Shown here piece by piece: positions 1,191-20,918 of a DNA stretch of 21,624 nucleotides. The stretch spans positions 186,001 to 207,624 of the forward strand of contig MEDY01000001.1 in NCBI GenBank assembly GCA_001724265.1, given 5' to 3'. The translations under genes and the position numbers were made by a program. The notes under the pieces are model-generated. The model had not been told where the DNA came from and made no database searches. It saw only the letters and a program-made list of their open reading frames with translations. Position 1 is the stretch's first letter. Each line of letters begins with the position of its first letter. The stretch is from Rhizaria sp. SCN 62-66. Taxonomy: Eukaryota.

Positions 1191-4029
1191 ATGTTGAGGA
1201 CTATCATCATCGCTGCTTGGGTTGCGGCCATCTCCATGGTCGCTGCCGACCTCCCCATCCACTGCCTCAGTTCGCAGGTCCGTTATTCCGCCGAGAAATG
1301 CCCTATCGTACTATCTACAGTCCAATTAAACCGCGTCTTCGCCTCCTAAGGTATCCACTTTGCTCATTATCTCTTATCTCTTCTCTCCTTCGTCTTTTGC
1401 CTCCTCCAAACCGCGCGCCCGTTTCTCTGTATGCAGGTGGCCGGCACGTGGGAGTTTAGCCTCGGCTCTGCGGACTCGCCGACGCCGGACTTGTGCGGCT
1501 ACCGCCAGCCGGACAAGTCTAAGCACCACCTGGACGGCTCGTACCGCTACACGCTGTCCCCCGTCGCGACGACCACGGTCTCGCTGACGCTGCCCAACGT
1601 CGTCGCCTCCACGGGCCCGCACTCGATCGGCAACGGCACGTGGACCATGGTCTACGACGAAGGCTTTATGCTGACGATGACGGACGGCGAGTTCTTCGCC
1701 TTCAACGCCTACAAGCCCAAGAAGGGCACGATGCTCAGCAACATCAAGCCTGAGCGCTACATCTCCTTCTGCGACCGCACGCTCATCGGCTGGTTCCGCC
1801 GCGGCGACCGCTTCGGCTGCTGGCAGGGCCGCCAGACCAAGCCTGCGTACCCGAACCTCCGCATCGCCGCCGCGAGCGCCAACTCGGCCGAGGTTGACTT
1901 CGCCGTCGTCGCTCCCGACTCCCTGCCCAACAAGAACAACCACAATCATGCCAACGCGGCGACGCAGCGCGGACCCGTGTCCCCGTTCCCGTCATTGCTG
2001 CAGATGGGCTCTGAGAGCACGTCGGCGGCCTCGGCGAGCGCGCGCGCGCTGGACGAGCTGTTCAACCCCAACTACGCGCTCATCGAGGCCGTCAACAAGG
2101 ACCCCTCGGCGCTGTACGCCGCCGCGCCCTACGCGCCGTTCCTGGGCAAGACGAACCGCGAGATGCTGAACCTCGTCGGCGGGCTCCCTCACTCCGGTCC
2201 GTCGCAGCTCCCGCGTTCCGCGCCGTCGACGCCCGTCACGAGCGCCGAGATCGAGCAGTTCGCGGCGTTCCTGCAACTGGAGGAGGAGATCACCACGCGC
2301 CGCGAGCTCAGCAGCAACAGCAAGACCGCCGAGCAGCTCGCCGCCGAGGCTGAGGCGGACGCGGAGGGCCACGAGCTGCCCGTCTTCCTCCAGACCGACG
2401 AGAGCATCTCTGTCAACACTGAGGCCGACACTGAGGCCGAGGCTGAGTCTGAGGCTGAGACTGTCGAGAGTGAGAGTGTCGCGTTCGCGGTCGCCCAAGA
2501 CGCCGAGGATCTCGCGCTTCTGCAGGCCCATGGCGCCTCGCCCCACCGCACCAAGATTATCCGCTCCCGCGCCAGCGCCCGTGCCGCGCAGCGCAACGCC
2601 GCCAATGCCGCCGCCAAGGCCGCTGCGATCAAGGCTGCCGCAGCGGCCAACGACCCGCGTCTCATCATCCCCGGTAAGATCGAGAAGCTGCGTTCCCCCG
2701 ATTCGGCGGCGCGCGCTGGCAACGCGACGTGCGAGTACGGGCTGCCCTGCGCGCTCGACTGGCGCAACCACCGGGGCCACAACTGGCTCTCGTCCATCCA
2801 CAACCAGGTACGAGCAACAATGAGAATCAGATATCGCTACTAAATCGTTCCGTTGAGCACATTAATTGGTGTATCGTAACGTGAAACGGCACTATATTAT
2901 GACTATAGACATTTTTAGTTCATGGTATTAATTTGGATCTCTAACTCACTTATTCTCTTGTAATATCCCTCCGTTTTGTTATCTTATTTGCAGGGCTCGT
3001 GCGGCGCGTGCTACGCGATGGCGTTCATGGCCGCGATGGAGGCGCGCGTGCGCATCAAGCGCAACCAGCCGACGCGGCACCGCTACTCGGCGCAGCACGT
3101 GCTGTCGTGCTCGCAGTACAACCAAGGCTGCGACGGCGGCTTCCCCGAGCTTGTTGGGCTCCATGTACAGCACTTCGGCGCCGTCTCCGAGAAGTGCTAC
3201 CCTTACGCTGCACAGGTACGGAACGATTTGCACTCGCATATATCGCTCTTTACAAAGATTAGACTTGAATAACATCGTGTAAGTTGAATCCTAACTCATT
3301 CCCTCACAATACTTTCTCTTTGTTTTGTGTTCCCGATGCCTTGGCCTCTGTTTAGGACGGTTTCTGCCGCCAGACTTGCAAGCACGAGGAGCCCGAAAAG
3401 CCGATCCAGAACACCCGCTACGTCGGCGGCTACTACGGCAACACCAGCGAGGAGGCCATGATGAAGGAGATCGCCACAGGCGGGCCCATCGTCGTCGCCT
3501 TCGAGTCCCCCCACGGGCTCTTTTCGTACCACGGCGGCATCTTCACGGGCCCCAAGCCGCGCGCCGAGGACCAGGGCGTGCCGGGCGCGCCGCTGTGGCA
3601 GCACACCAACCACGCTGTCACGGCCGTCGGGTGGGGCCACACGATGGTACAGGGCAAGCGCGAGAAGTACTGGGTCATGATGAACTCCTGGGGCAAGAAC
3701 TGGGTACGTTTCACACACACATAACAAACAACAAACAACAATAACCATAGTCTCGCATGTAACAATAATGTGTTGACGTTGAGCCACGTTTCGAGACTTG
3801 CCAACGTGATGCCACTCATTGTGCTTCTGTATGATGTCTACTTTAACACGTATCTATGCTCCACGATGCTCTCCAAATGATCATACGCTCATGTCCATTC
3901 TGTCCTTCGATCTTTGTTTTGTTGATGCTGTAGGGTGAGGAGGGCTTCTTCCGCATCCGCCGTGGCACAGACGAGTGCGCGATTGAGTCGATGGCCGTCT
4001 CCTTTGACGTCAAGGACGGTGCCTTCTAA
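1191..4029 (+). CDS. CTSC: Cathepsin C / dipeptidyl aminopeptidase I-like papain-family protease, 5 exons (1191-1277, 1437-2807, 2994-3215, 3356-3703, 3934-4029), 707 aa
   Basis: Signal peptide [19 protein letters not shown] is followed by the exclusion-domain start [17 protein letters not shown] and [11 protein letters not shown]. Catalytic-domain motifs: [15 protein letters not shown] (Cys), [20 protein letters not shown] (His), NSWG (Asn), [19 protein letters not shown]. All four introns are phase-0 GT-AG and join in frame; stop is TAA. Confidence 0.95.
1278..1436 (+). other. Spliceosomal intron 1 of cathepsin C (159 nt)
   Basis: GTCCGT donor, long pyrimidine tract, ATGCAG acceptor; joins [10 protein letters not shown] to VAGTWEF. 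Confidence 0.9.
2808..2993 (+). other. Intron 2 of cathepsin C (186 nt)
   Basis: GTACGA donor, CTAAC at 2941-2945, TTGCAG acceptor; joins HNQ to GSCG. Confidence 0.93.
3216..3355 (+). other. Intron 3 of cathepsin C (140 nt)
   Basis: GTACGG donor, CTAAC at 3291-3295, TTTAG acceptor; joins YPYAAQ to DGFC. Confidence 0.88.
3704..3933 (+). other. Intron 4 of cathepsin C (230 nt)
   Basis: GTACGT donor, TGTAG acceptor; joins NSWGKNW to GEEGFFRI. Confidence 0.92.
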
Positions 4030-4478
4030 GCCAACGTGCATCTTAGTCCATGTCCAAACGAGAGAGCTAAACAACAGCACGAGAGTTGTTGTGGAAGGGA
4101 GGTTAAATTGCCCTGTTCGAGTGTGAATTTAAGAGATGTAGGTCTTACGTAGATGTCTATGCGCTCTAACAATACAAATATTACGTAGATTACTATCGAA
4201 ATTCTGAAATGCTTCATAATCGAGACTATATGACGTTGAACTTTAGAGAATTGCCAGTTGTGGTGCTGCTCGGGTGTTCTCTCCTTCCAGACGTATCCTT
4301 CACTTTACATATGAATATCACGATATCACGACCGTAAACAGAGATATGACGAATGATGCGACGTGCCATATACAACTTAAACTTATCCATTTAATAATAC
4401 GTCATAGATGTGTATTTAACCCTGACAATCGCCGGACAATTATGCGTTCATTCAACTCTCCCTCGTGACCACGTAAAG

Positions 4479-6155
4479 ATGTCTGCCCCCGAGCCCAAAG
4501 ACCCCGCTCCAGGCGACAACGCCAAGGGTCCCGCGGCGGCCGGCAGCGAGCCCGCCGCGCCCCCCGCGTACGACGGTCCGACGGAGCTTCTGATCGACCA
4601 GCTGAACCGCGACGTGGAGTACGTCGTCGTGACTGGCGACATTCCCATTCGCCGCTACCTCGAAGGCTCGCGCGCGCTCATGCTTGCCGGAGACCAGGCC
4701 TTCCTGAAGAACGACTACGCGACAGCGTTTAAGAACTACAAGAAGTTTGTCCGCTTGCTGCTCGTCGACCTGAAAAAGCACATGTTCTACGGCTCCGCGA
4801 CACACCGCAAAGACATCGACGAGCTCACCCAGTTCGCGCGCGAGTGCCTCACGAAGCTGGAGACGCAGATCGCGCCCAAGATCAAGGACCGGCGCGTGCC
4901 CATTCTTCCGCTGCCCTCCGCGACAACGGCGGCGGCTGACTCGTCGACGGGCGCGGGGGGCGCGGATGCTGCCGACGACGACCTCACTGCTCGGTTGAGC
5001 CGACTCGCAGTTGCTAAGGCTGCCGCTGCTGCTGAGGCCGCCAACGCCGCCGCCGCCGCCGCCGCGGGTGCGCCGTCGTCGCTCGCGTCGATCTACACGC
5101 CCAAGCCGCCGCCTGGTAGTTTGACCGCGGCGTCTGTGCCCGCGGCGGGCTCCGCGGTGGCGGTGGCGAGCAGCAAAGGCATGCGCACGCTGCACATCCC
5201 GGTGAGTCTGATCCCCAAGTTCAAGGGCATGTGCGACGATAACACGCGCGCAGGCGTGGAGACGTGCGCGCTGCTTATGGGCCGCGAGTATGACATTGCT
5301 AACGACGACGGCACTCTCGCAACGGTCACCGACGACGAAGACAATGCCGATGCCGCCGCCACTGTTGGCGACAACGACGACGAGGACGAAGACGGTACCA
5401 AGCCCGCCGACAGCAAAGATAAGAAAGCCGCCGCCGCCGCTGCTGCCGCGTTGAAGGCGGCAGCTGGCAAGGGCCGCAAAGTGAAGACAGCTCTTGTTGT
5501 GACGCACATGGTGTTCCCCGAGCAAAAGGGCTCGCCCAACTCGGTCGAGACGTTCAACGAGGAGCGTTTGATTGCAGTGCAGGAGGCGCACGACGTGTAC
5601 GCGCTGGGGTGGGTGCACACGCACCCGACGCAGACGTGTTTCCTGTCATCGGTGGACCTGCACTGCCAATGCTCCTACCAGACGCTGCTGCCCGAGGCCG
5701 TGGCGGTGGTCGTAGCGCCGCGCTTCAACGAGACCGGGCTCTTCCACCTCACGCCTGGTGGGATGAAGACGGTCGCGGCGTGCAGGGAGCCCCCCGCGCG
5801 GCACCACCCGCACGCGGCGCCCGCGAGTGATGGCGGGCACCTCTACGTGCACACAAATCACACCGTGCTGCATTACCCGAGGGGCCACCGCGCACACGAC
5901 GCCGCCGCGCTGCCCCGGCTCGCCGCGACCACTGCCGCGGGCCGCGCCGCGCTGCCGGACCTGGGCGGCGTCGGTGCGGTAACCGTAGTCGACCTGCGCA
6001 AGCCCGGCGGCGGCGGCGTGGGCGGCTTCCTCTCGGGGCTGTTCAGCTCCAGCGGCGGCAAGGGCAAGGACGGGGAGCCGCTGGGCCCGACGATGTACGG
6101 GCAGGCCGCGGGGCTGAGGTACCCGTCGATCCCCGCGAACCTCAAACTCAAGTGA
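4479..6155 (+). CDS. STAMBP: AMSH/STAMBP-like JAMM (MPN+) deubiquitinase, 558 aa, intronless
   Basis: N-terminal USP8-dimer/MIT-like region (IPIRRYL…AFKNYKKFVRLLLVDLKKHMFY), then ETCALLMG, the JAMM motif GWVHTHPTQTCFLSSVDLH, SYQTLLPEAVAVVVAP and the Ins-2 C…HPH. First ATG at 4479; stop TGA. Confidence 0.93.
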   Translation: MSAPEPKDPAPGDNAKGPAAAGSEPAAPPAYDGPTELLIDQLNRDVEYVVVTGDIPIRRYLEGSRALMLAGDQAFLKNDYATAFKNYKKFVRLLLVDLKKHMFYGSATHRKDIDELTQFARECLTKLETQIAPKIKDRRVPILPLPSATTAAADSSTGAGGADAADDDLTARLSRLAVAKAAAAAEAANAAAAAAAGAPSSLASIYTPKPPPGSLTAASVPAAGSAVAVASSKGMRTLHIPVSLIPKFKGMCDDNTRAGVETCALLMGREYDIANDDGTLATVTDDEDNADAAATVGDNDDEDEDGTKPADSKDKKAAAAAAAALKAAAGKGRKVKTALVVTHMVFPEQKGSPNSVETFNEERLIAVQEAHDVYALGWVHTHPTQTCFLSSVDLHCQCSYQTLLPEAVAVVVAPRFNETGLFHLTPGGMKTVAACREPPARHHPHAAPASDGGHLYVHTNHTVLHYPRGHRAHDAAALPRLAATTAAGRAALPDLGGVGAVTVVDLRKPGGGGVGGFLSGLFSSSGGKGKDGEPLGPTMYGQAAGLRYPSIPANLKLK

Positions 6156-6397
6156 AGCGGTGCGCGAGTGGAGTGGTGAGCGAACGACTGACTGCGCCGT
6201 TAGTGGCCAGAAGAGTGAGACAGTGAAGACTCACTGGTCAGAGGTCATGTTAATGATGGCCAGCTTGTTATATTAGTTTAGAACAATACAATAACAAATT
6301 TGCATCTGCTTGGACATGTCTATTCTAACTTCTGTCTACATGTAATCAATGTTGCGAGTCGTCTTGATGTAGGAGTGAGGACTTGTTTGTCAAGCTA

Positions 6398-6451
6398 AGA
6401 GTCCAAATTATCATGTAATAATTGAGAGTCCAAATTATCATGTAATAATTG
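6398..6451. repeat. Perfect 27-bp tandem duplication (agagtccaaattatcatgtaataattg x2)
   Basis: Read directly: copies at 6398-6424 and 6425-6451, in the spacer between convergent genes. Confidence 0.95.
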
Positions 6452-6579
6452 TATTATCTCGGGATTACTAATAAGTTATGATATACAAATATGGTTTGGG
6501 ATTTTGTTCCTAGTTTCTCTGTCCGTAATCATAAAACTGAACGTCGAGTATCATGATTTGCGTTTGTTGCGCGCCTTGC

Positions 6580-8100
6580 TTAGTCGGCCTTCTTGGCCGC
6601 AGTCTTGCCCTTAGCAGACGCCTTGGAGGGCGAGAAGTCCACCCGCGCCATGTCCGTAATCACGCCCTCGGTACCCGTGGTGCTCACGGTCGCAGTCGCA
6701 GTTGCAGACTCACCGGTACCGGCGGTGGTGCTCACGGTCTTGGCGGCGGTGGTGCGGGGACGGAGCCAGTTCTTGAACGGCACTTCGACAAGGTGGTAGC
6801 AGAGCGTGCCGTAGAGGAACGAAACCGCGATGACCGTGAGCGCGACGGGGATGAAGATGCCCCAGGTCATCTCGGTCAGCATGCCGTAGCGGTCAATGTA
6901 CATGTCCCAGATCTTCATGGCAAACGCGGAGTGAGTCAGGTACACGGCGTACGTCGGGATTTGCAGGTAGCCAAAGATCTTGTGAGAGAGGACGCGGGAC
7001 AGCGCGCCGAACACGGGGCTGACGGACGGGTTGATGAGCAGGTAGATGATGTAGTTGAGCGCGAAGAGCCAAAGGAGCCCGCCGACGGAGAAGAACGTCA
7101 TGTGCAGCGGAGACAGCCAGTCGGTGTAGAACGTGCCCGCAACGCCAAGCACGGTCACGGCCAGCGCGGCCCAGTGGAGGAGGCGCTTGGAGCCCGCAGC
7201 GGCGAGCTGCGCGGGGAGCTGGCGGAGGTTGATCTGGACCCAGGCCAGCAGCACGCCGGTGAAGATGCAGCCCAGGCGCTGCGGGGTGGACGAGTACCAG
7301 ACGTTGAAGTACATGAAGAACGAGTCCTTGTCGACGAGCTCGAAGACGTAGACCTTGGGCGGCGCGAAGGGCATCATGGCGTATGTGTAGAGAACAAACC
7401 GCAGCAGGCCGTGCAGACAGAGGCCGGCGAGGATGGCCTTGACGAGGCGCGTGCCGCGGCCGAACCAGCGGATGGCAAGGGGGAAAATAAGGTAGAAGTG
7501 CACCTGGACGCAGAGAGACCAGGTCCAGCCCATGCAGCCGCCGAAGGGGATGATGTTGTTGAGGAAGAGCAGGTTCGCGATGGAGATCTCGCAATTGGAC
7601 GGCACGCCGGTGAGGTCGGTGCGGCCGGCCACGGTCTCAACCATCTCGCGAATCCCGGTCGAGGGGTGGCGGTCCCACGCGAGCAGCGGGGAGCGGTAGA
7701 AGAGCCCCAGGCAGACGAAAAGCACGGAGACGATGAGCGTGGGGTAGACGCGGGTGACGCGGAGCCACACGAACTCGGACCATGTGCCGGTGCGCGCGCC
7801 CGCGAGCACGGGGTACGCCAGCAGGAAGCCCGTCAGGATGAAGAAGATGTCGACGGCAAAGAGCCCGTTATTGAGGAAACGCATCCAGGGCGCGTAGTAG
7901 AAGGCGTCGAATGCGGGCTCCTTGAGGATCATGGACGTGTGCCAGAGGACGTGGAAGGTGACGACCCACAGCGTCATCAGCACGCGCACGCCGTCCAGCA
8001 CAGGGAAAACCTCGTACCGGGCCTTGGCGGGCGTGGCGGCGGGCGCGGCGGGGGCGGCCGCGGGGGTCAGAGCGGTGGCGGCGTCGGAGGCGCGGGCCAT
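6580..8100 (-). CDS. Acyltransferase family 3 (OafA/NRF-6-like) multi-pass membrane O-acyltransferase, 506 aa
   Basis: Motifs LDGVRVLM..WVVTFH, AVDIFFILTGFLL, RVTRVYP, WTWSLCVQVHFYLIFP, TYAVYLTH, YHLVEVPF, with many hydrophobic segments. The start is placed at ATG 8100 because the upstream part of the ORF is a pyrimidine tract and AT-rich spacer. Stop TAA. Confidence 0.88.
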   Translation of the reverse strand: MARASDAATALTPAAAPAAPAATPAKARYEVFPVLDGVRVLMTLWVVTFHVLWHTSMILKEPAFDAFYYAPWMRFLNNGLFAVDIFFILTGFLLAYPVLAGARTGTWSEFVWLRVTRVYPTLIVSVLFVCLGLFYRSPLLAWDRHPSTGIREMVETVAGRTDLTGVPSNCEISIANLLFLNNIIPFGGCMGWTWSLCVQVHFYLIFPLAIRWFGRGTRLVKAILAGLCLHGLLRFVLYTYAMMPFAPPKVYVFELVDKDSFFMYFNVWYSSTPQRLGCIFTGVLLAWVQINLRQLPAQLAAAGSKRLLHWAALAVTVLGVAGTFYTDWLSPLHMTFFSVGGLLWLFALNYIIYLLINPSVSPVFGALSRVLSHKIFGYLQIPTYAVYLTHSAFAMKIWDMYIDRYGMLTEMTWGIFIPVALTVIAVSFLYGTLCYHLVEVPFKNWLRPRTTAAKTVSTTAGTGESATATATVSTTGTEGVITDMARVDFSPSKASAKGKTAAKKAD

Positions 8101-8785
8101 CAGCTCTGCGAAGTGGGCGGAGCGGGGCGGGTGCGGAGGGGCAGGGAGTGCGGGGGGCAGGACGGGAAAAGCGGAGTCCAGGACGTAGAAAGAGAGATGA
8201 GCAAATAATGAAATGGCTACATGTCTAATAATATGTACAATATTCTGGTGTAGTGCTCTTGAACTCACTGACGGATGATACGCAGAAAGCGAGAACTTCG
8301 GCAAAAGCAACTTCGCCTTCGCAACTGGCGACGACGTCTTTACTAATCTCTCTGACGGAGTCATCTTCTTCACATAGAGAGGCAAGATGATTGAGCATAC
8401 AAGTACATATTGAATATGATGCATTTCATTGCACAATGTACTTGAATTTATTATCAAATCTTGTCCTGACTCAGTAACCAGCCTGCTGGGCCTCTGTGTA
8501 GCGCCTGATGTGTAAACCATGCTTCTTTTCAATCCTATATCCTGAGAACGCCTCAAGTACACATATAAGCGCATTCCTAATTGTTTTCTTGTTTACAATC
8601 GGCATGCCTGCTGTATATATCCTTAGCCCTTCATCAGACGTCGTTATCCGAACTCTGAAGCGCACGGGCTGGTTGGAACGCGTAACGTCTTCTGCAATTG
8701 GCTGCCCACGTGCAGAGCGTCCCAAGGGGACTAAGGCGACAAAAGCTCGTCTGGTGCATCTAGAACGTGCTACTTTTTTGTCAGA

Positions 8786-10441
8786 ATGAGTGGCCCCCCG
8801 TAGCCCTATAGCCACCCGCGGCCCCGGCCCCAGTCATCCGCCGCCCGCCCAGCCTCCCACACAGCCCTGTTGTCAGCAACAACAGCACCACATACCACCG
8901 GTGCGCGCATCCCGTTCTCCCGCGCGCCCCCTACGGCCCGCCGCGCCGCGTTTGCCGCCGCGCGCCCGGTGGCCCCTTCTGTGATCCACAGCGCTGCCGG
9001 GAGTAACACCAGCAGTAGCGGCGGTATCAGCTCCTCCAGTCGCGCTCTCGCAGCCCCCGCCACGTCCGCCTCGTTCTCCACCACGGCGGCGTTCGGCCCC
9101 GGCGCGGGCGCGGGGTCCGACGCCGCAGCGGCGCTGGTGGGGCAGCTGCACAGCGTATGGTGCCGTGTCGCGGCGCTCCGAGCCAAGTGCGCGCAGGCCG
9201 AGGCCGCAGAAGCGGCGGCTGAGGCGGCGGCGGCAGGTGGGATGGAGAGAACTGTGCCAACAAGCCGTACCGGCTACAGTGGTGCTAGTCTTGGTCGCGT
9301 GACTGATAATGGGGATGATATTGGCGTGGTCGCGCAGATCAACGCACTGAGGCTGCAACAGCAGCATCAACAACAGCAGCAGCAACAAAAGCACAATCAT
9401 AAGCAGCAACAGCAGCCACAGCAATCCAGTGCGCGGGGCTACGACAGCAGTCGCAGCAACCGTAGCTGTGAGCGCCACTGCGCCAGTGGCGGAGCCGACG
9501 ACTGTGAGCTGTGCCTTGTCGCGCGCTACGGTGACTTTGACAACAATAGCAACGACGGCCATCACGATGACGATGATGACAATGTTCAGGATGATTTTGA
9601 TAATGCAAGCAGCGCGGACCCATTTGCGCAAGCACGGCGGCTGCGGCGCTTGCACGACGCACTTGTGGTTAAATACTCTCCGCTCGGCATCGGCTTCACA
9701 GTGCCTGGGCAAACGCACAGCGATGCCACGAGAGATGATGGTGACGGCCACAGTGCACTCGTGCCGCCTGCGCCGGGCCGCGCGTTATCCCGTGCCTCGG
9801 CGCGCGCAGAGCTGCTGCAAGTGCGTGCCGTGACGGAGCAACTCCGCGCGGAGGCCGCTGCGGTCTCCCAACGCACCCGTGCACTGCGGCACTCTGTTCG
9901 CGGTCACTCTGCAGCTCACGGTCAAGTTGGTGCTGCTCACGGTCACGATGCTGACGACGCGGACTATGAGTTCCAGCACGACTACGACACGGCCTTTTTG
10001 AGCGCAAACGCGTCCGCAAGGGCACGCAGCGATGGCAATAATCGCGGCGGCGCGTGCGCCAACTCGAGCGCGAGCGCAGCTTTCGCTACCGCGCTCGAGC
10101 TTGAGGACGGCCGCGCGCGCGCGCACGCCCAGGAGCAGCGGCTGCAGCGGCGCGCGCTGCTGGCAGCCGAGGCGTCCGTGTCGGCGTCGCTGGGCGCGCT
10201 GCAGGCGCAGCTGCGGCAGGCGCGCGGCGAGGCGGCAGCGCTGCGACGCGAGCACGCGCAGGAGCAGCCGCGGCTGACAGCGCTGGCAGCGGCCGTGACC
10301 GAGGACGCGGCTGCCGCGGCGGGCGAGCGCGCGCGCGCGGTGCGAGCCCGGGACGCCGCGGCGGCCGAGAGGGATGAGGCCGCGGCGCGGGTCGCGGTGC
10401 TGCGCAAAAGGCTTGCGGATATTGAAGCTGGACTAGTCTGA
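8786..10441 (+). CDS. Orphan Ala/Gln-rich protein with C-terminal coiled coil, 551 codons, with in-frame TAG at codon 6 (8801-8803)
   Basis: ATG AGT GGC CCC CCG TAG CCC TAT… is in frame with the 8870-10441 ORF. GC-rich coding-like composition starts at this ATG. Contains a polyQ tract (~9355-9425) and a heptad-like C-terminus; stop TGA. The start depends on how the TAG is interpreted. Confidence 0.65.
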
Positions 10442-11070
10442 CAAAGATTGCAGCTGTTATTAGCACTTGAAATGAGTTACATAGAAACAAGGGTAGTACA
10501 TAGTTGAATAAATTGAATATTGTCTTTTATTATCTGATATGTTTCTTGTGTACATCAGGACGCTATGTATAACTCTTTTAGTTACACGCTTTGCGTTTGT
10601 ACATCCAGTACGTACGGGATCCGAGTAAGCTTACTAGTAAACATTCCGTGCGAATTCAAAATCGGGAGTAAATGTTTGATATTGCACGTATGTCGGGATG
10701 TATTGCGTCTTCTACAAGTCATGAACATACATGCTTTCCGATGAAAACAGTGACAAATACGATGGCGACAACAATACCGCGATTGTGTAGCAAAAAAAAT
10801 ACGGAGGTGTTGCAAAGCAAAATGCAATCGCCTTTGTTTCCACAGCAACTTAGTCACGAGAGTACGGTTTAAGACACTTGATGGTTTAAAACAAAAAAAG
10901 GAAGATAAAAAAACAAACAATTATTAAAAGAGAAAACAAACAAGCGAGAAAAATCGGTTGCCGTATGCGTCGTATGATACGCTCCGTCGTCGATCTCGCC
11001 CTCTATGCAATGCAATCAAAACGTGCAAGTCGATAAACAGTGTGTCGGTGCGCAGAACATAAGAGCGCCA

Positions 11071-12942
11071 TTAGTACCTCCGCTGCGTCACAGGAAACGT
11101 CTCGTCGCCCAACGACCCCGCGTCACCGTCAGCTTCGGGGTCAAAGAATGTCGTGAAACCTTTATCCTTGTTCCTGTTGTACTGCCGCTGCGCCGCCAGC
11201 GCCGCGCTGTGGCCGCCGCCGCCCCACTCGTCTCCGGTCACGTTGGTGCCGCCCGCGCCGCGCTGCCCGCCGCCCGCGCCGCCGCCGCCGCGGCCGACGC
11301 CGCCCGCGTGCGGAGACAGAGGGCCACGCGCGCCGGCGCCGCCGCCGAACTCCGCCCCCGCGCCGCCCGCGCCGGCGTCGGCAGCGTGGCCGTGGCCGCC
11401 GCCGCCGCCGAGCGCGACCGAAAGCCCTGCAGGGCGGCTGCGCGCCGTGCCGCCGATGTCCATGGACGCGAGGCGGTGGCGCATAAAGGCCGCGGCGTTG
11501 TCGTCGTCGCCGCCGTCGCCGCCGCTGGCGCCCGGGACCGGCAGCTCGGCGACCGCGCACGCGCCCGGCACGACATGGCTTGGCGCCGCGCTGGGGTCGA
11601 ACGGGCTGTGCACCGCGTTGCTCAGCAGCAGGCTGTCCGTGCCGACCGACATGAGGTAGGCCCCGTGACGCAACACGTCGTCGTTCACTGGCGAGACGGG
11701 ATCCTCGCGGGCTGGAGCGGCGGCGGCGGCCCTGGCGCTGTGTGTGCCGCCTGTCTGCACGCGCAGCCCCATAGCGAGGCCGGACGGCGCGCGGCTAGAC
11801 CGGGTGCCGCCGCCGTCGCGGGCGCTCTCAGCAGCCGCAGCAGCAGAGGCTGCGTCGCCGTCTGTGGTGTCGGTCTCGTCGTTGCCGCCGCTGTTGTGTT
11901 GCTGCTTGGGCCAGGTGCTGTTATGCGCGCTGCTGGCCTTGAGACGCGCGCTCGCGCCGCTGTGGCCGCTGCCCTTCTTCGCGCTGCGACCAACTGCGCC
12001 GTCGTTATCGTCGCTACCGTCGTCGTCGTCGTCGTCCGCGTCAGCGCCAGCGCCAGCGCCGGGCGTGATGAACGAGTCGCTCACGCCGGCAACCGCGTGC
12101 GGCGTGCCCGCGGCGCGCGTGTGTGAGGCGTAGAAGCTCGTACTGGTGACGCCGCCGCTGCTGCTGCTGCTGCTGTGGCTGCTGCTGTTGCTTGGTGACG
12201 CTGATGCGACCATCACTCGCGCACCCGCAGCAGAGCCAGGCACGGCTGTGTTCAGCGTCGAGAACGGCATCGTGCCCGCGGCGGCCGCGGCGCCCTCGTT
12301 GCCGCTGCCGTCGTTGGCGTACTTGCTCTTTGCATACTTGGCACCGACAAACACAGCGCGTTGCTTCGCCTCGTCGCTCGCAGCCTCCGAGTGCGCGCGC
12401 ACAACCACCTTGAGCACGGGCGCGGTCGCCGCGGCGGCCTCGGCGGCTGTGGCCAGCGCGCCGTCGTGCGCCGCGATCGCGCCCCCTGTGGCGACAGTGG
12501 CGGCCTTGGCCAGCACCGAGTGGCCGTGGGGGCCTGCGTGGGTGAAGACGTAGTACTGCTCCTCTTCGAGCACTTCGGGCTTCGAGGACGCGGCGGTAAG
12601 CGCAACGCGCGCGGCGAGCGCGGCGACGTCGAAGCTGGCACGCCACTTGTCGCCGCCGTCGTCGCCGACACCTTTGACTGCGATGGTGAAGACTTTGCTG
12701 TCGAACGTGCCGGCGTGCTTGTCGGCAAGGAAAAGCGACGAGTAGAACGAGAGTGGTTCGTCCCAGTCTACGTTACCGTTGGAAACAAGCCCCAGCGCCG
12801 TCTGCACGACTTTCTCCTTGCGTTTGAGCTGGCACTGCAGCGCGGCGCCCTCGAGCGCGCGCGGCAGGTTGTGCAGGTGGCAGACGTAGACGTGGAAGTC
12901 GAAGCGGACCTTCTTGCGGCCCAGGTTCTTGAAGAACGACAT
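11071..12942 (-). CDS. NT-C2 (EEIG1/EHBP1-type C2) domain protein with long disordered tail, 623 aa
   Basis: N-terminus MSFFKNLGRKKVRFDFHVYVCHLHNLP…LKRKEK..QT…V.NGNVDWDEPLSFYSSLF…FDSKVFTIAV matches the NT-C2 pattern. The rest is Gly/Ala/Ser/Asp low complexity. Stop TAA. Confidence 0.8.
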   Translation of the reverse strand: MSFFKNLGRKKVRFDFHVYVCHLHNLPRALEGAALQCQLKRKEKVVQTALGLVSNGNVDWDEPLSFYSSLFLADKHAGTFDSKVFTIAVKGVGDDGGDKWRASFDVAALAARVALTAASSKPEVLEEEQYYVFTHAGPHGHSVLAKAATVATGGAIAAHDGALATAAEAAAATAPVLKVVVRAHSEAASDEAKQRAVFVGAKYAKSKYANDGSGNEGAAAAAGTMPFSTLNTAVPGSAAGARVMVASASPSNSSSHSSSSSSGGVTSTSFYASHTRAAGTPHAVAGVSDSFITPGAGAGADADDDDDDGSDDNDGAVGRSAKKGSGHSGASARLKASSAHNSTWPKQQHNSGGNDETDTTDGDAASAAAAAESARDGGGTRSSRAPSGLAMGLRVQTGGTHSARAAAAAPAREDPVSPVNDDVLRHGAYLMSVGTDSLLLSNAVHSPFDPSAAPSHVVPGACAVAELPVPGASGGDGGDDDNAAAFMRHRLASMDIGGTARSRPAGLSVALGGGGGHGHAADAGAGGAGAEFGGGAGARGPLSPHAGGVGRGGGGAGGGQRGAGGTNVTGDEWGGGGHSAALAAQRQYNRNKDKGFTTFFDPEADGDAGSLGDETFPVTQRRY

Positions 12943-14065: not shown

Positions 14066-14506
14066 ATGTTCCGCCGGGCCGCCTCCCGCGTCGCTACCGT
14101 GTCTGCGCCCCGCGCGCTGTTCTCCGCCGCCGCGCGCGTGCCGTCGATCAAGTTCACCCATGGCGCCCGCGCGCAGATCGAGGCCCAGCTCAAGGCCGCC
14201 GCGCTCGTCACCCCGGCCCACTTTGCCACCTTCACCGCTGGCGCCGCCTCCTCCGGCGTCGCTCCCGCCGTCGCGGCCGCGTCCGCGGGCTCCATGGTCC
14301 AGACCGTGGGCCCCACTGTCGTGGTCGGCGGCAAGAAGACCACCACCATCTACATGCCCGCGTCGTGCATGACCGACCCCTTCGGCCGCCCCGCGATGGC
14401 GTTCGACGAGGCCACCATTGCCATGATCGACGCCGGCGGCGCCGTCGACCCCCCGGTCAAGAAGGACGCCAAGGGCGGCAAGGGCGGCAAGCCCGCCAAG
14501 AAGTAA
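14066..14506 (+). CDS. KGD4: Mitochondrial KGD4/MRPS36-like protein (2-oxoglutarate dehydrogenase adaptor), 146 aa
   Basis: Arg/Ala/Ser-rich presequence MFRRAASRV…, then the RVPSIKF motif, a flexible Ala-rich linker and the C-terminal helix motif RPAMAFDEATIAMIDAGGA (compare the family pattern EEI..I..GG). Strong codon bias; stop TAA. Confidence 0.72.
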   Translation: MFRRAASRVATVSAPRALFSAAARVPSIKFTHGARAQIEAQLKAAALVTPAHFATFTAGAASSGVAPAVAAASAGSMVQTVGPTVVVGGKKTTTIYMPASCMTDPFGRPAMAFDEATIAMIDAGGAVDPPVKKDAKGGKGGKPAKK

Positions 14507-15687
14507 GCGCGCCAGCAACGAACACTGGCGGCGAACAAGCTTGAAATTGCATGTAACATTTGCTATTTGCTACCGATCACACGTGAGTTGGAGGTTTCTG
14601 CTCCTCGATCCACGTGTATGGTATGATTGCAAGTGTAGATGCAAGTGCTATGAAGTACACCACAAGCACCGACGATCTCAGATACGCTGCAGACTGCATG
14701 TTGTGTGTCTGTCGCTGTTGATGTGTTGTGCGTGTTGGAGGTGGAATCTATCTATTGTCGCAGTCTCTGTCTGTGTAAGTAACGACGAACAAACTTACAT
14801 GGTGGCAGTCAATGGTGTACGTGGGTGTGTGAGTACACACGCACACGTGGACTCTTGACAGCTGCGCTATTCTAATAACACAAATCAAATCTCAAAATCT
14901 CAATTTTATCTTACAACCTCAGGGAGTTGTTGCTTCTGTTGCTGTTGCAGCTGTGTAACGACACGGATTACGCTCTCGTTATAATTAGTAATAATACAAA
15001 TCTCATAAGAAAAATATAGCACGCTCGCGTAGTTTGAGACGCACGTATGATTTGCAAGAAAATAGGCATCGATAAGGGTCGGGGAAAACAAATGTTATTG
15101 TAAGCTTAATGAAATAAACCAATGAAATATACTTGCTGCGTTCTGCATCGGCAGCCCTGACCATTTGTGACACGCAGACTCACGATTTTCTTTTCAAAAC
15201 AACCAATCAACGCAATAACAACAAACATGAAATCAGTAATAAGCAAGAACAATTTCACTCTTCTTAGAAGGTTGTCAAATTATGTATTCATCTGATGACG
15301 TGCGGTCAATGATTCATATCGATATCTTCCGAAACCGTCCAAGTGTGTGCCCACTTGAATATAAAAATCCGGTGTCAATCGCGTAATCCCGTCATCCCAT
15401 CATAAGGTTAGTTGTGCTAGGTAATTGTGACATTATATGGAGCTTTCTTGTTGTCATATTGTAATGTTGCGGACGGAGAGAAGGTTGATATAGCTATATC
15501 ATATTGATACGTTTGCCCAGGCTGCTGGTCCATTCAAACACGCTCTTGAACGGTTTCATCCTCAGAGCTGGCCCGGCTCACACTTTTCTTGTCGCGTAGT
15601 GACGAAGTCGACCGCTTGATAAACCCGTCGGAATTGCCAGCGAGCGCCGCCAGCCCCGCTCGTAGTGATGAGCGCGGGGCAGGGTTA

Positions 15688-15929
15688 TCACTGCTGGCCC
15701 AGGCTCTGACTGAGGTCCAGACCCTGGCTTTGACTGTGTCTGCGGCGCGCCGGAGCAGGGCTCTCACCGGGCGGCCGCGGGCTCTCCCCCAGCGGCCGCG
15801 AGCGCCGCATCACAATGCGCCCGTCGCTGGCGCCAGAACCGACGTTGGCGACGACGTGCGGACTACCACTGCCACTGCCGCTGCCGCTACCGCGGCTGCG
15901 GCTGCGCGGCTGCTGCGGCGACTGCTGAC

Positions 15930-15984
<55 letters not shown>

Positions 15985-18498
15985 AGACGGCAAGGGAGAC
16001 TGGCCCCGCGACCCGCCACCGCCACCACCGTCGTTGCCGTTGTTGGCGTGAAGCCGCGCCCCCGCCGACGGCGGCCGCGCTTGTTCGCGGTGCAGGTTGA
16101 ACGAGCGCTGCCGCATCGGCACCACGCCCTGTCCGCCGGCGGCCGCGAAGCGGGCCTGGCTGTGCGCGCCCAGTGCCGACAGCGACGACGGCGACACCAG
16201 CACGGCGCCAACGCCGCTGTTTGCACTGACGCCTGCACTGTTGTTCTGAGCACTGACTGCGAGCGGGTTGAGGCTCGCTGCGGCGCCGCCGGCGCCCGCG
16301 GCTGCACCGGCCCCACCGGCACCAGCGGCGCTGACTGCGTTGGCGTTAAGCAGGATCGAGTGCGCAGGCGCTGTAGGCGCGCTGAACGGGTCGTTTGCAG
16401 TGACGATCGACCCGTCGGCCGCGATCACGGGCGGCGGCAGCGGCAGGAACATGCTGAACGCACGCATCAACGGCCCTTGCTCGCTGGAATGCGCCGTCGC
16501 GCCGTCCTCGTCGTCGTCGTCGTCGCTGCCGCTGCAGTCACACTGGAACGAGAGGCAGCACAGTGCGACGATGGTCAGCACAAACACCGCGACGAGCAGA
16601 CCGAGCGTGATGGCCTTGAACGTGATCAGCGTGTTGAGTGTCGACGTGATGGCAACAGTGCCGAAGCCCACGGTCTCTTCGCTCTCGTGTTCGGCGTCGA
16701 ACAGTGGACACGGCCCCAGCGGGCCCGCAGCGCCACCGCCGAAGCACTGGTTGTGGCAGTCTGGCACGGCGGCGGCCGCGAACGGCGGCACGGCGCACAC
16801 GCCGCACAGGGAGAGCAGCGATGGACCGCCGCGGACGCCCGCGCAGTCGGAGGCGCACACTTGCAACACACGCACGCTCATGTCGACGCTCACGGCATCG
16901 GCAGCGGCATCTGCGTCGGGGTCTGCGCCTGTGCCCGTGACGTCGCCAGGGGTGAGCGCAGTGCCGGCGCCGGCGTAGCGCGAGGCAGGCCGCTGCGCGA
17001 TGCAGTCGCACGTGTCGTCTACAGTGGGCGCCGCCGGCAGCGCGATGCCCGTCGCGCTCACGGCCACCGTGGCCGGCGCGGCGGGCCCGACGGCGGGAGC
17101 GTGGGCCCAGCGGAGGGGCAGCGCGGGCGAGAGCATAACGGTGCCCGCGGTGGCGTCCGGGGTGGCGATCCCGTTGGGCACCGCGAGCTGCAGAGTCAGC
17201 GGCGTGGCCGCGTTTGAGGTGGTGGGCGTGTTGCAGCGAAACACGGAGCCTGAGACAGCGCGCGCCAGGGCGCTGCGGCCGATGCTGAACGTGTTCGGGT
17301 CGTCAGAGTCCGCTGCAGCGGCCTCAGCATCGGCGGGGGAAACGCCCGTGGTCGCAAGCGGTAAGAACGGCGCGTCATGCGCAGCCTGCGGGAGATCGTC
17401 TGGGTCGGTTGTGATGAGACACCACAAAGTGGCGTCGTCGTCGCTGCTGCTCACAATCACGCCGTCGGCGGACACAGCAGAGGCGGAGCGCAGTGCGGGC
17501 GCAAAGGCCTCGCCCGCGGGCCCGCGGAAGCCGCGCGCGCGCAGCGGTGCGCCGAAGGAGGCGACTGTGAGCGCGGTCGTGCTGCTGTTACGCACCGGCA
17601 GCGGAGACAGACACGCCGCGGGGGCGACGGGTAGCGCCGCAAGGGTAACCGTAGTGCCCGCGAGCAGCGTCTCGGCCGGGAAGAGCTGCGATACCGGTGA
17701 TGCGGCCGCCGCCCCTGTGAGGAGCCCCGGCCAGTCTGTGGTGTGGGGCCAGCCGGAGGCCTCGGCGTTGGCGGCCGGCAGCAGCCCCCAGAGTGCAGGC
17801 GGCGCAGTGGCCATCGTCACGGTTTGCGCCTGCCCCAGCGCCGTCACGGCCGCGATCACGTCAGGGTCCCCGGTCACCGCGATGTCCTAGGCGTTGGCGA
17901 GCGTCAACGAGGCCCAGATCGAGTCGGGGGACTGTAGTACGACGTCCAGCGCCCAGATCGCCTTCGACAGCGCGGAGGCGTTTGTTGGAGTCGTGGAATC
18001 TGTGGCACGCAGCGGGCCGCGCGTGCGGAGCGCAAAGATGCCCGCCGCGGCGTCGCAGTGCACCCGACGGGAGAAGCTCAGCGCGTTCACGTTGAACTCG
18101 TATTTCTCAAGCGCGAATGGCGTGATAGAGCCCTTAATCGAGCCGGGGAGTTCGGCAGACGAGGCTGCAAGAGAATAGAGGCTTAGTGTCTGGCTGGTGT
18201 TCAGGTTGACGCCAACGGTGCTCGTAGACATGCCGAAGAGCGAGAAGGGGAAGGCGTAGGTGCGCGAGGTGGTGTAGGGAACACTGGTGAAGTTTGCGAC
18301 TGAAGACAGATCCAGCGCGGCAAACGCGGCATCCGCAGTAACTGGAAGCGGGTAGCGGTGCCAGCCTATGTACTGCGCACCCGCGCGCGGAGCCGCTAGA
18401 AGGCAGCAAAGTAGCGCGAGCGTGAGCGCCGCGGCAGAAACGGCGCGGCGGTGCGGCGGGCTGCAGGGGCGTGGAGACAACGACGGGGGCGGCGGCAT
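15688..18498 (-). CDS. Type I membrane/surface protein, 936 codons, with one in-frame TAG at 17889-17887
   Basis: Signal peptide (…AAALTLALLCCLLAAPRAGA|QY), ectodomain, Cys motif DCAGVRGG…CGVC…DCHNQCFGG, TM AITLGLLVAVFVLTIVALCCL, and a cytosolic low-complexity/polyQ tail. ORFs 17887-18609 and 15688-17877 are the same frame, separated only by the TAG. Ends TGA TAA. Confidence 0.75.
15931..15984 (-). repeat. (CAG)18 microsatellite encoding polyglutamine
   Basis: Uninterrupted CTG x18 on the + strand, inside the membrane-protein CDS. Confidence 0.95.
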
Positions 18499-19205
18499 GC
18501 TGCGCAAGGAGTGCGCGCGCGCGGGGAACAATTGAGAGTCCAAGGTCGTAGCGTGAGGCTCCGTGTGGAAGCGGGTGAACGCTGTTACGGTGTGCAGGAA
18601 AGGAGTCAAGAACTACGGACAAGTTTGTGGTGGGTGGTGGCCGACCGGCCGGAAGACCGCTTAGAGCTGCGTTTTCGTGAAACAGGAAGTAAACACGTGA
18701 AGTTGTAATGTAAGTATGTTTAGTATATCAAAAATGTGTCTGAATGCAACAAGTATGTGACAAACATGGGGTATACGCGCGTTTCTTGAGTGCATCAGAG
18801 GGATACGTGGGGCGCGGGAAAAAAGCAACTTGTAGTCGGTATATGTGCATAGATTGATCGTCAAAGTGGACAAGGATTATACCCCAGTGACTATTTCGAT
18901 CGCATTTATATTTCTTTAAAATATCAATCTCATATCGGTCCTTCACTCCTCTCTACACGGTATACATCCATCTTCATCCTGTCCGTTCGAACAAGGTCTG
19001 CTCTCGTGTGTACGAATTCAGCAACCACAACCCACGCTACTCTGCGACGACGCGCATTATCCCGGTGCATTCTGTTGCGTGCTTGTCTGTTTGTAGGCCG
19101 TACTCAGAGCGTAAACCAGTCACTAGCTCTTCTCTCTCGCTCCTGACCAACACAAATACTGAGCCAAATCATATCTGATAGAATCTTGACTGACGGCAGC
19201 CTAAC

Positions 19206-20107
19206 ATGTCGTCGTCATCGTCGCTATCCCCGTCGTCAGCGTCAACATCGTCGCTGTTTGATCGCACGGGCGCCAACGCCCGCCCTGGGCCTAATTCAAG
19301 CATGCATGGTACGCTCTCCTGATCCTAAAGTCACTTTGGTCCACCGTCTGACTTGAACAAACCTCATGACTGAGCAATGACAGCACGGCTATCACTATTG
19401 GCAAGCATTCCCGAGCTCAATTCGGTGGACACATCTCACTAACGCACTGTTTAATTGTGTATTAACGCAAACTCATTGTTATACGGCACAACTCAACCAA
19501 TATAGAGCGTGGCGGTCTGGTCCACACCGTTCTGGAGCAGTTCGGCCTCGAAGGCTCCTCCGACGAAGACACCGCCGCTGCCGCAGCCTCCGCCGCGGAC
19601 CCGAACTCTGCCGCAGGCGCGCGCTTTGGTCCCCTGAGTGCGCTGGCGCCCGCGTCCCACTCTGCCGCCGTCTCGGGGCCCCAGGGCCGATGCCTGGGCT
19701 GGCTGGCCCCGCCGACGCCGCGCGCGTATGCGGCGTGCTGCTTCCACGCCTGGGGCACCTACACAGCCCTCGCGCTGCTCGCTGCCGTCGCGCTGCTGGG
19801 CGGGGCGCTTGCGCGCGAGCCCGCGGCCAGCAAGCGCGCGCAGGAGAGCGAGGACGACGCGCTGGCGCGGGCGGCCAACACGCAGGCGGGCCGGCTGCTG
19901 GGCGCGTTCGGCACGCTCGCTGGACTGGCGTGGGTCGTGTGCTTTATGCGCCGCCGCAGGGCTAAGACGCATCTCCACAACACGGGTCATGGCACGGCCG
20001 CGCAGGCGCAGGGCCGCGGCGCGGGGGCGCGCAGCAGCGGCGGCAATAGTAACGGGGCGGGGCAGGGGCGAGATGATAACGGGGAGTACGAGGAGGAGTA
20101 TATGTGA
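19206..20107 (+). CDS. Orphan two-TM protein, 2 exons (19206-19308, 19506-20107), 234 aa; not in the ORF track
   Basis: Exon 1 reads MSSSSSLSPSSASTSSLFDRTGANARPGPNSSMH. A phase-1 intron 19309-19505 (GTACGC, CTAAC 19439-19443, TATAG) rebuilds GAG. Exon 2 reads ERGGLVHTVLEQF…YTALALLAAVALLGGALA…LLGAFGTLAGLAWVVCFMRRRR…EYEEEYM, then TGA. Confidence 0.78.
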
Positions 20108-20633
20108 GGGTGTACGCGTGAGGTACGCGTGGGAGATGTGTGAACGTTTGTGTCGATCTCCACTTTGACGGCAACTTACTGCTTGAAGTCCGCGTTTGTC
20201 CTGACTGTTTATCTTTGTGGCAGTGATGTGCGTTGAAGATACCACTGTGAGCGACGCGTGTCGCGCTTTTATATGTTACTTAGTATGATTATTGTGATTA
20301 TAATTCAGTTTTGTGTCACTATTGAGGTTTAAATACATCGAGTCAGTCGAAGCGAACTGTTAAGATAGGTGACTCATGAATCAAGGATGTATTGCCAGTT
20401 TCAAAGGACTCAAAAGATGCCAGATCAACTTGATAAGCTATAAAGTATGTATCCAAACGCTATATAACAATATGAGTAAGTATTACCCAGCTTTGTGACT
20501 CGGTTAGCACTCACCGGCTTAGTTCTCATCGATCACCAGCTATCATCACATGCGCCTTGCCGCGCCGACGATAGGCATGGTTGAGGACAGGTCGATTGTC
20601 AACACGGGTGTGACAGTAGCTAAAGTAAAGCAC

Positions 20634-20918
20634 TCATTGCGCAGCACCGTCGGCCGCGGGCGCGACCGTAGGCAGCGCGTTCTCGTCGCGAAGCTGCACA
20701 AACACCTGTGCCCCATCGGCCAGCACGTCGCAGAGCACTGCGGCCATGTCGAGCTCCTTGCCGGACTTGAGCACCACGCCCAGCGGCGCACCAAACTGGA
20801 TCCCAAATGTGGGGTCGTAGCGCGCCAGCGCAGCGTTCGCCAGCCACTGAACCGACTGGTAGCCCTCGCCGCACTGCAGGGTGATCATCTTATCCTTGAC
20901 GATAACGTGCACCTTCAT
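20634..20918 (-). CDS. Small ubiquitin-fold protein resembling the Par3/HAL N-terminal domain, 94 aa
   Basis: MKVHVIVKDKMITLQCGEGYQSVQWLANAALARYD…LDMAAVLCDVLADGAQVFVQL matches the V.CG.G...V.WL...A..RY…L…..DVL.D pattern of that domain. Stop TGA. Confidence 0.7.
   Translation of the reverse strand: MKVHVIVKDKMITLQCGEGYQSVQWLANAALARYDPTFGIQFGAPLGVVLKSGKELDMAAVLCDVLADGAQVFVQLRDENALPTVAPAADGAAQ

What the first reader, a model, noticed from the sequence alone, without database searches (positions are those of the whole stretch)
1191..20918. Candidate non-standard nuclear genetic code: UAG read as sense while UAA/UGA remain stops
Seen: two independent, otherwise intact genes contain an in-frame TAG (+8801-8803; -17889-17887). 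All nine complete genes end in TAA (cathepsin C, acyltransferase, NT-C2, KGD4) or TGA (AMSH, coiled-coil, membrane protein, two-TM, Par3/HAL-like), none in TAG. A 0/9 result alone has about a 4-8% chance if TAG were 25-30% of stops. Known: uncoupling UAG from UAA is rare in nuclear codes; examples are UAG=Gln in the fornicate Iotanema spirale, UAG=Leu in the rhizarian 'exLh', and a few ciliates. Inference: UAG is a rare sense codon here. Neither TAG sits at a conserved position, so the amino acid cannot be called; Gln and Leu both read plausibly. The polyQ tracts use only CAG/CAA.
Basis: partly seen in the sequence, partly recalled or inferred. Interest (0 to 1): 0.82.

Follow-up and report, generated by a model that had tools for sequence, protein, structure and literature searches.

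The report
Two in-frame TAGs, code change unproven
Two genes of an uncultured GC-rich wastewater eukaryote really carry an in-frame TAG and no gene here ends in TAG, but this short stretch cannot show whether the organism reads TAG as an amino acid or simply carries a broken gene and a tiny upstream reading frame.

Summary
TAG stands at +8801-8803 and at -17889..17887, and the nine gene models end 4x TAA, 5x TGA and 0x TAG.

Both TAGs are real DNA. Contigs from another study cover both with 0 differences, and a slightly different strain keeps the TAG at 8801.

Neither TAG can be removed by a splice of this organism's own type. 6 of 6 mapped introns begin GTMCG, and no such donor lies upstream of either TAG.

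The TAG at 17887 sits inside coding sequence. Coding signal runs on in the same frame on both sides. A 774-aa homologue, 41% identical, crosses that column without a break.

The TAG at 8801 is codon 6 after the only usable ATG. It is followed by 146 coding-like codons with no in-frame ATG.

The evidence is thin: 2 TAG in 4355 codons and none in the five genes with a Pfam or fold family. About two thirds of one-step nonsense changes here give TAG anyway.

No genome, tRNA-CUA, eRF1 or RNA read across either TAG could be reached.

My odds are about 0.5 for the standard code with a premature stop plus a uORF or second lesion, and about 0.33 for UAG being decoded.

The parts
8801..8803 (+). TAG no. 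1, codon 6 after ATG 8786 of gene 4
   Evidence: Sequence read. Unchanged in X3 (8162-9031, 0 differences) and in X4 (8074-9058, 2 differences elsewhere).
8786..10441 (+). Gene 4: orphan Ala/Gln-rich coiled-coil-like ORF of 551 codons if TAG is read through; ends in TGA
   Evidence: No Pfam family and no homologue found. 8804-9241 has GC 0.749 and scores as coding in this frame (-0.09, against -1.1 to -1.9 for spacers). The ATGs on the + strand in 8601-9300 are 8604 (other frame), 8786, 9157 (other frame) and 9242.
17887..17889 (-). TAG no. 2, codon 204 of gene 7
   Evidence: X3 contig 17800-20631 has 0 differences. The N-terminal piece ending here is on record from 6+1 contigs.
15688..18498 (-). 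Gene 7: signal-peptide-like N-terminus, large N-terminal domain, one membrane span, polyQ/Gly/Ser tail; 936 codons; ends TGA followed directly by TAA
   Evidence: GC3 periodicity stays in one frame from 15601 to 18451. Codon score is 0.01 upstream and 0.14 downstream of the TAG. Homologue P0003 (774 aa, 41% identical) matches residues 37-638 in one stretch.
4027..4029 (+). TAA stop of cathepsin C (exons 1191-1277, 1437-2807, 2994-3215, 3356-3703, 3934-4029)
6153..6155 (+). TGA stop of the AMSH-like JAB protein (4479-6155)
6580..6582 (-). TAA stop of the Acyl_transf_3 protein
10439..10441 (+). TGA stop of gene 4
11071..11073 (-). TAA stop of the NT-C2 protein (12942..11071)
14504..14506 (+).
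   Evidence: No Pfam hit.
15688..15690 (-). TGA stop of gene 7, followed in frame by TAA
20105..20107 (+). TGA stop of gene 8 (exons 19206-19308 and 19506-20107)
20634..20636 (-). TGA stop of gene 9 (20918..20634; weak Par3_HAL_N_term match, E 0.0016, below the Pfam cut-off)
8682..8803 (+). The only in-frame 'intron' I could construct to remove TAG no. 1 (ATG 8604, donor GTAACG, acceptor being the TAG itself); judged unlikely
   Evidence: The donor does not fit GTMCG, which 6 of 6 real introns have. GC is 0.54 against 0.35-0.49 for five of those introns. The putative exon 8604-8681 (entered as 8605-8682, one base off) scores as non-coding (-1.13 or below in all three + frames).

Best explanation
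The organism most likely uses the standard code, and the two TAGs are ordinary events in two fast-evolving, dispensable genes.

TAG 17887 would be a premature stop. It is either a loss-of-function allele, possibly one allele of a diploid, or a very young pseudogene. It is fixed in the near-clonal population that was sampled repeatedly.

TAG 8801 would close a 5-codon upstream reading frame, or be a second nonsense change. Gene 4 would then be translated from a near-cognate or downstream start.

The absence of TAG among nine terminators would be small-sample chance.

Shown here: the TAGs exist, they are reproducible, and they are not spliced by a consensus intron. Inferred: that they terminate translation.
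For: - Base rate (my own knowledge, not a call): a nuclear change of UAG alone is known from very few lineages.
- Density is very low: 2 TAG in 4355 codons. None lies in the five genes with a Pfam family or clear fold family, which total 2540 codons (cathepsin C, AMSH, acyltransferase, NT-C2, the 146-aa ORF). In the rhizarian exLh, 384 in-frame UAG were found in 71 genes, many at conserved Leu columns (PMC5304391, passages read).
- With this codon usage TAG has 614 one-step sense neighbours, against 166 for TAA and 146 for TGA. About two thirds of random nonsense changes would therefore give TAG, and 'both are TAG' is weak evidence.
- In the only homologue, the TAG 17887 column aligns with Ser in a non-conserved stretch next to a 4-residue indel. 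No residue is implied.
- All records of the TAG 17887 piece are identical in sequence. This shows one strain, not conservation across diverged lineages.
- Another frame break lies in the partial gene at 1-830. Imperfect frames therefore occur in this stretch without any need for a code change.
- P(0 of 9) is 4-13% if TAG makes up 20-30% of stops.
Against: - Gene 4 has no ordinary start under the standard code. After the TAG come 146 codons with GC 0.749, against 0.39-0.49 for the 8 spacers. They score as coding in this frame (-0.09) and hold no in-frame ATG before 9242. An out-of-frame ATG at 9157 lies in the way. The one strain difference there (9073) is a synonymous third-position change.
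- Gene 7 is otherwise intact for 732 codons after the TAG, keeps GC3 of 0.80-0.88, and has a full-length homologue.
- Two stop-interrupted genes among nine, both interrupted by the one stop codon that never ends a gene here, is an unlikely coincidence.
- TAG 8801 is kept in a second strain that differs by 2 letters within 985 bases.
Confidence: 0.5

Rival explanations
1. UAG is decoded as an amino acid in this organism, either by full reassignment or by efficient read-through, while UAA and UGA stay stops. A tRNA with anticodon CUA, or a near-cognate tRNA, together with an eRF1 that recognises UAG poorly, would insert a residue (Gln, Leu or another; it cannot be called here). The codon would be rare because the change is young, or because GC3-rich, strongly biased genes avoid it.
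For: - 2 internal TAG against 0 internal TAA and 0 internal TGA in 4355 codons, and 0 of 9 terminators are TAG.
- Both TAGs are reproducible in other studies' contigs.
- No consensus donor (GTMCG, seen in 6 of 6 introns) is placed to splice either TAG out. 0 of 72 in-frame ATG/GT/AG combinations upstream of gene 4 have such a donor.
- Coding signal continues in the same frame across TAG 17887, and the homologue P0003 crosses that column.
- ATG 8786 is the only in-frame ATG in front of 146 coding-like codons, and it has a purine at -3 like 7 of the 8 other start candidates printed.
Against: - Only two sites, both in orphan, low-complexity genes.
- No TAG in 2540 codons of the five family-bearing genes.
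- No TAG falls at a conserved column.
- None of the 153 Gln codons (126 CAG, 27 CAA) in the nine models is replaced by TAG inside the polyQ runs.
- No tRNA in the window.
- The density is about two orders of magnitude below the published UAG-sense case exLh (PMC5304391, passages).
- The homologue of the acyltransferase on a 268-kb contig of another eukaryote ends in TAG. This shows only that any change is not shared widely.
Confidence: 0.33
2. The TAGs are artefacts of the record or of the gene models: a consensus error, a chimeric assembly of strains, or an unusual non-consensus intron or alternative first exon that removes them from the mRNA.
For: - Depth is low, at word depth about 5-8 in the runs laid.
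- An in-frame model exists for gene 4: ATG 8604, donor 8682, acceptor at the TAG, 122 nt.
- 2 of 6 real introns end in TAG directly before the exon, at 3931-3933 and 19503-19505.
- A 54-nt in-frame GT..AG stretch ends at TAG 17887.
Against: - The letters are identical in contigs of three studies and in 7 recorded contigs.
- The gene 4 donor GTAACG breaks the GTMCG rule, which holds in 6 of 6 introns. Its exon scores as non-coding (-1.13) and its GC is 0.54.
- The 54-nt stretch in gene 7 has GC 0.63. By my reading, 16 of its 18 third positions are G or C. It also encodes residues (LQSPD..L.LA) shared with P0003.
Confidence: 0.07

Closest known systems
UAG-only nuclear reassignments: Iotanema spirale (UAG=Gln) and Rhizaria sp. 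exLh (UAG=Leu), Panek et al. 2017, PMC5304391 (passages read)
   Same: In-frame stops are exclusively UAG, and the terminators are only UAA and UGA (exLh: 56 UAA, 15 UGA, 0 UAG).
   Different: exLh has 384 UAG in 71 genes, many at conserved Leu columns, with eRF1 changes described. Here there are 2 in 9 genes, none at a conserved column, and no eRF1 or tRNA data.
UAG reassignments in phyllopharyngean ciliates (PMC11687900) and the ciliate PL0344, where UAA and UAG differ (PMC10553269); search listing and start of abstract only
   Same: UAG is uncoupled from UAA.
   Different: The window has multi-gene, GC-rich DNA (exons 0.6-0.75 GC) and introns of 140-230 nt. By my recollection this does not look like a ciliate macronuclear genome. 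Taxonomy was not resolved here.
Premature termination codon alleles, young pseudogenes, and short upstream ORFs (general knowledge)
   Same: A single in-frame stop in an otherwise intact, non-essential, fast-evolving gene, and an ATG followed by a stop a few codons later ahead of a main ORF.
   Different: The main ORF of gene 4 has no AUG of its own for 146 coding-like codons. Both events use the one stop codon that is absent from the terminators.
NCBI translation table 15 (Blepharisma nuclear, TAG=Gln); recalled, not looked up here
   Different: The amino acid cannot be called from this window.

Membership tests
Nuclear genetic code with UAG as a sense codon | Recurrent in-frame UAG in many genes, including conserved single-copy genes | tested here: inconclusive
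   2 of 9 gene models carry one TAG each. 0 of 5 family-bearing genes (2540 codons) carry any. Only 21.6 kb is available and no genome is held.
Nuclear genetic code with UAG as a sense codon | In-frame UAGs align with one consistent amino acid at conserved columns of homologues | tested here: not met
   TAG 17887 aligns with Ser in a non-conserved stretch beside a 4-residue gap in the single homologue P0003. Gene 4 has no homologue. The sample of one column is too small for this to count against the hypothesis.
Nuclear genetic code with UAG as a sense codon | UAG absent, or nearly so, among true terminators | tested here: inconclusive
   0 of 9 terminators are TAG (4 TAA, 5 TGA). The chance of this is 4-13% if TAG makes up 20-30% of stops.
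Nuclear genetic code with UAG as a sense codon | A cognate tRNA with anticodon CUA | not testable with these tools
   ARAGORN finds 0 tRNA genes in the window. Rfam gives 0 matches.
Nuclear genetic code with UAG as a sense codon | eRF1 N-domain substitutions that weaken UAG recognition | not testable with these tools
   eRF1 is not in the window and no other contig of the organism could be fetched.
Nuclear genetic code with UAG as a sense codon | mRNA carries the UAG unspliced and protein runs across it | not tested
   The single read-laying run listed no RNA contig across either TAG. An X6 polyA RNA contig carries a difference at 9073 in gene 4, but its span was not listed.
Premature-stop allele / young pseudogene | A stop inside a frame that is continuous in homologues, with no other lesion required | tested here: met
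   P0003 crosses the site. The downstream 732 codons are open. This feature is equally met under read-through.
Premature-stop allele / young pseudogene | Other strains or alleles carry a sense codon at the site | tested here: inconclusive
   Every record found carries the TAG and is otherwise identical. By my reckoning from the depth table, the diverged strain X4 does not reach 17887.

The most novel reading that the evidence does not exclude
An uncultured, GC-rich, intron-poor eukaryote from wastewater reactors has freed UAG from termination while keeping UAA and UGA as stops, and is at an early stage in which UAG reappears as a rare sense codon in weakly constrained genes. This would be a further independent uncoupling of UAG from UAA in a nuclear code. 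It would also be a rare snapshot of a reassignment in progress.
Probability: 0.3. Interest if true: 0.8.

Novelty: already known. Interest (0 to 1): 0.45.

Why it matters
If UAG is really decoded here, this would be one of very few nuclear codes in which UAG and UAA differ. It would be found in a non-ciliate, and its low codon density would suggest an early stage of reassignment, which theory predicts but which is seldom seen.

If it is not decoded, the case is a useful warning. In genomes with GC3 near 0.9, about two thirds of nonsense changes produce TAG. A few in-frame TAGs plus a small sample of TAA/TGA terminators can therefore mimic a code change.

A 233,573-bp contig carrying these genes exists in public assemblies, so the question can be settled cheaply.

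Tried and rejected
- Whole genome: none is held.
- Metagenome scan with the acyltransferase: the window's own contig was not returned. There were 5 loci, the best being L001 on a 268-kb contig at 44% identity. L001 shares no other window gene (0 of 14 other query pieces hit it), so it gave no orthologues of genes 4 or 7.
- Scans of genome contigs and viral contigs with AMSH: nothing.
- Word-index homologue searches: gene 7 residues 1-640 found none, although the exhaustive HMMER search later found P0003. Gene 4 found none. P0002 found only itself.
- Exact look-ups of five further ORF versions: 1 of 5 was on record, with no variant.
- Crude read-through ORF counts on all six frames did not discriminate, because GC-rich antisense frames stay open. 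A scan for stops flanked by 40 open codons was dominated by antisense frames, where TAG arises from NNC-TAY.
- Taxonomy: the partial eL27 (21385-21624) best matches animal ribosome entries without resolution. Atlas neighbours of AMSH are opisthokont clusters. No taxon was assigned.
- RNA evidence: no RNA contig was listed across either TAG, and X4 seems not to reach 17887. This is no evidence either way.
- A 37-nt intron or a +1 shift to mend the frame break near 240-290 of the left partial gene was considered and left open.
- Literature: three full-text searches listed no report of a UAG change in a wastewater or GC-rich non-ciliate protist. Supplements are closed, so tables of codon counts in PMC5304391 were not seen.
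Full report
WHAT THE WINDOW IS

The window is eukaryote-like DNA. Exons have 60-75% G+C with GC3 of 0.71-0.95. Spacers have 39-49% G+C, and genes lie on both strands every 2-2.5 kb.

Runs that hold the stretch are bioreactor, wastewater and activated-sludge metagenomes from six studies. No whole genome is held.

Pfam places four genes:
- cathepsin C exclusion domain
- JAB/AMSH
- Acyl_transf_3
- NT-C2

A partial eL27 lies at the right end, and a weak Par3-like N-terminal domain lies at 20918..20634.

I mapped six introns:
- four in cathepsin C (1278-1436, 2808-2993, 3216-3355, 3704-3933)
- one in gene 8 (19309-19505)
- one in eL27 (from 21217)

All six begin GTMCG. CTAAC, or CTAAG in the first intron, lies 47-90 nt before the acceptor in four of the five introns I scanned. 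Those five introns are 140-230 nt long with GC 0.35-0.49.

THE OBSERVATION

My nine gene models hold 4355 sense codons with 2 internal TAG, 0 internal TAA and 0 internal TGA. They end 4x TAA, 5x TGA and 0x TAG.

ARE THE TAGs REAL?

Yes. Contigs of a run from another study (X3) cover 8162-9031 and 17800-20631 with no differing letter. A run from a third study (X4), whose strain differs at scattered sites, covers 8074-9058 with two differences, neither at the TAG.

The 203-aa product that ends at TAG 17887 is on record from 6 contigs in several repositories. The same sequence with another start call is on 1 more contig.

All these copies are identical. They show one strain seen many times, not conservation over evolutionary distance. 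The read-laying run listed no contig of the diverged strain over 17887.

TAG 17887 (GENE 7)

- GC3 periodicity stays in one frame from 15601 to 18451.
- A codon model trained on 2509 codons of the other genes scores the frame at 0.01 upstream and 0.14 downstream of the TAG. Spacers score -1.1 to -1.9.
- An exhaustive HMMER search of 1.84 billion representatives found 2 proteins. One is the window's own N-terminal piece. The other is P0003, 774 aa and 41% identical, matching residues 37-638 in one stretch.
- P0003 has the same layout: N-terminal domain, membrane span, an 'RQRSFNLHREQA' motif and a polyQ tail. It runs straight across the TAG column.
- That column aligns with Ser, in a variable stretch next to a 4-residue gap, so no amino acid can be inferred.
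- An intron is excluded. No minus-strand GTMCG lies between 17474 and 18615. The one in-frame GT..AG stretch (54 nt) is GC-rich with coding-type third positions, and it encodes residues shared with P0003.

The TAG therefore lies in a bona fide coding frame. Either it stops translation, giving a loss-of-function allele or a young pseudogene, or it is decoded.

TAG 8801 (GENE 4)

- The TAG is codon 6 after ATG 8786.
- The 438 bases after it have GC 0.749, against 0.39-0.49 for the eight spacers. They score as coding in this frame: -0.09, against -0.13 for the rest of the gene.
- On the + strand between 8601 and 9300 the only ATGs are 8604 (other frame), 8786, 9157 (other frame) and 9242.
- The one strain difference in that stretch (9073) is a synonymous third-position change.
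- No + strand GTMCG lies between 8018 and 9063.
- Of 72 in-frame ATG/GT/AG combinations upstream, 0 have a consensus donor.
- The best combination is ATG 8604, GTAACG at 8682, and the acceptor at the TAG. Its exon scores as non-coding, and its GC is 0.54.

Under the standard code gene 4 therefore needs one of three things: a non-AUG start (14 near-cognate in-frame codons exist), a start at 9242 behind two upstream ATGs, or an atypical intron. Gene 4 has no Pfam family and no homologue was found, so its N-terminus cannot be checked by comparison.

WHY I DO NOT ACCEPT THE CODE CHANGE YET

- The density is 2 in 4355 codons. Both TAGs lie in the two least constrained genes, and the five family-bearing genes (2540 codons) have none.
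- In the published UAG=Leu case there were 384 in-frame UAG in 71 genes, with 56 UAA, 15 UGA and 0 UAG terminators (PMC5304391, passages read).
- With this organism's codon usage TAG has 614 one-step sense neighbours, against 166 for TAA and 146 for TGA. Nonsense changes would therefore mostly be TAG anyway.
- 0 of 9 has a chance of 4-13% if TAG makes up 20-30% of stops.
- A further frame break sits in the partial gene at the left edge. Frame 1 scores as coding to about 240 and frame 2 from about 270, and TAG 289-291 is the first frame-1 stop after the break. Imperfect frames therefore occur here for other reasons.
- The tests that define a reassignment were out of reach: many conserved genes, tRNA-CUA, eRF1, and RNA or peptides across the sites.

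WEIGHING

Three coincidences are needed under the standard code:
- a premature stop in a conserved-architecture gene
- an AUG-less coding-like N-terminus behind an in-frame ATG-5 codons-TAG
- no TAG terminator

These are set against a low prior for a change of UAG alone, and against the unusually low codon density that such a change would need here. I put the standard code with ordinary lesions at about 0.5, decoding of UAG at about 0.33, and model or record artefacts at about 0.07. The rest is unassigned.

The question can be decided from public data, because a 233,573-bp contig with these genes exists.

Noticed in passing
window 1-830 (+): Partial multi-exon gene with repeated 'MNAT..A....R..D'-like units; a 21-nt repeat at 37-57 recurs at 701-721 with 90% identity. 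Coding potential is in frame 1 up to about 240 and in frame 2 from about 270. Frame 1 ends at TAG 289-291, and no consensus donor lies between. This could be a frameshift lesion, a +1 shift or a tiny intron. If frame 1 really ended there, it would be a TAG terminator. GC3 is only about 0.6, unlike the other genes.
   Followed up: partly
window 8101-8592 (-): The acyltransferase frame stays open for 164 more codons upstream of the Met at 8100, in 47% G+C sequence that scores as non-coding. The two strain differences there (8245, 8524) are both synonymous third-position changes, and a polyA RNA contig covers 8134-8476. The L001 homologue, however, starts near the Met at 8100. It may be an N-terminal extension or a long 5' UTR.
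   Followed up: partly
window: introns 1278-1436, 2808-2993, 3216-3355, 3704-3933, 19309-19505, 21217-about 21383: The splice signals are very uniform. 6 of 6 donors are GTMCG. CTAAC (CTAAG in the first intron) lies 47-90 nt before the acceptor in 4 of the 5 introns scanned. 2 of 6 acceptors are TAG sitting in frame directly before the exon.
   Followed up: yes
L001 9956-11314: A 268-kb eukaryote-like metagenome contig (GC 0.53) encodes a 44%-identical acyltransferase whose ORF ends in TAG. No other window gene is found on the 21 kb fetched.
   Followed up: partly
window 15685-15690 (-): Gene 7 ends with tandem stops, TGA then TAA.
   Followed up: no
window 3435-3547: Run X4 holds a second contig with a cluster of 17 listed differing letters in the fourth cathepsin C exon. 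This is a related strain, species or paralogue in that sample.
   Followed up: no
P0003 (protein from a 15,099-bp metagenome contig): The only homologue of gene 7 starts at the position matching residue 37 of the window's protein, so it lacks the signal-peptide-like start. Its true 5' end may lie behind a stop or an intron. Its DNA could not be fetched.
   Followed up: no
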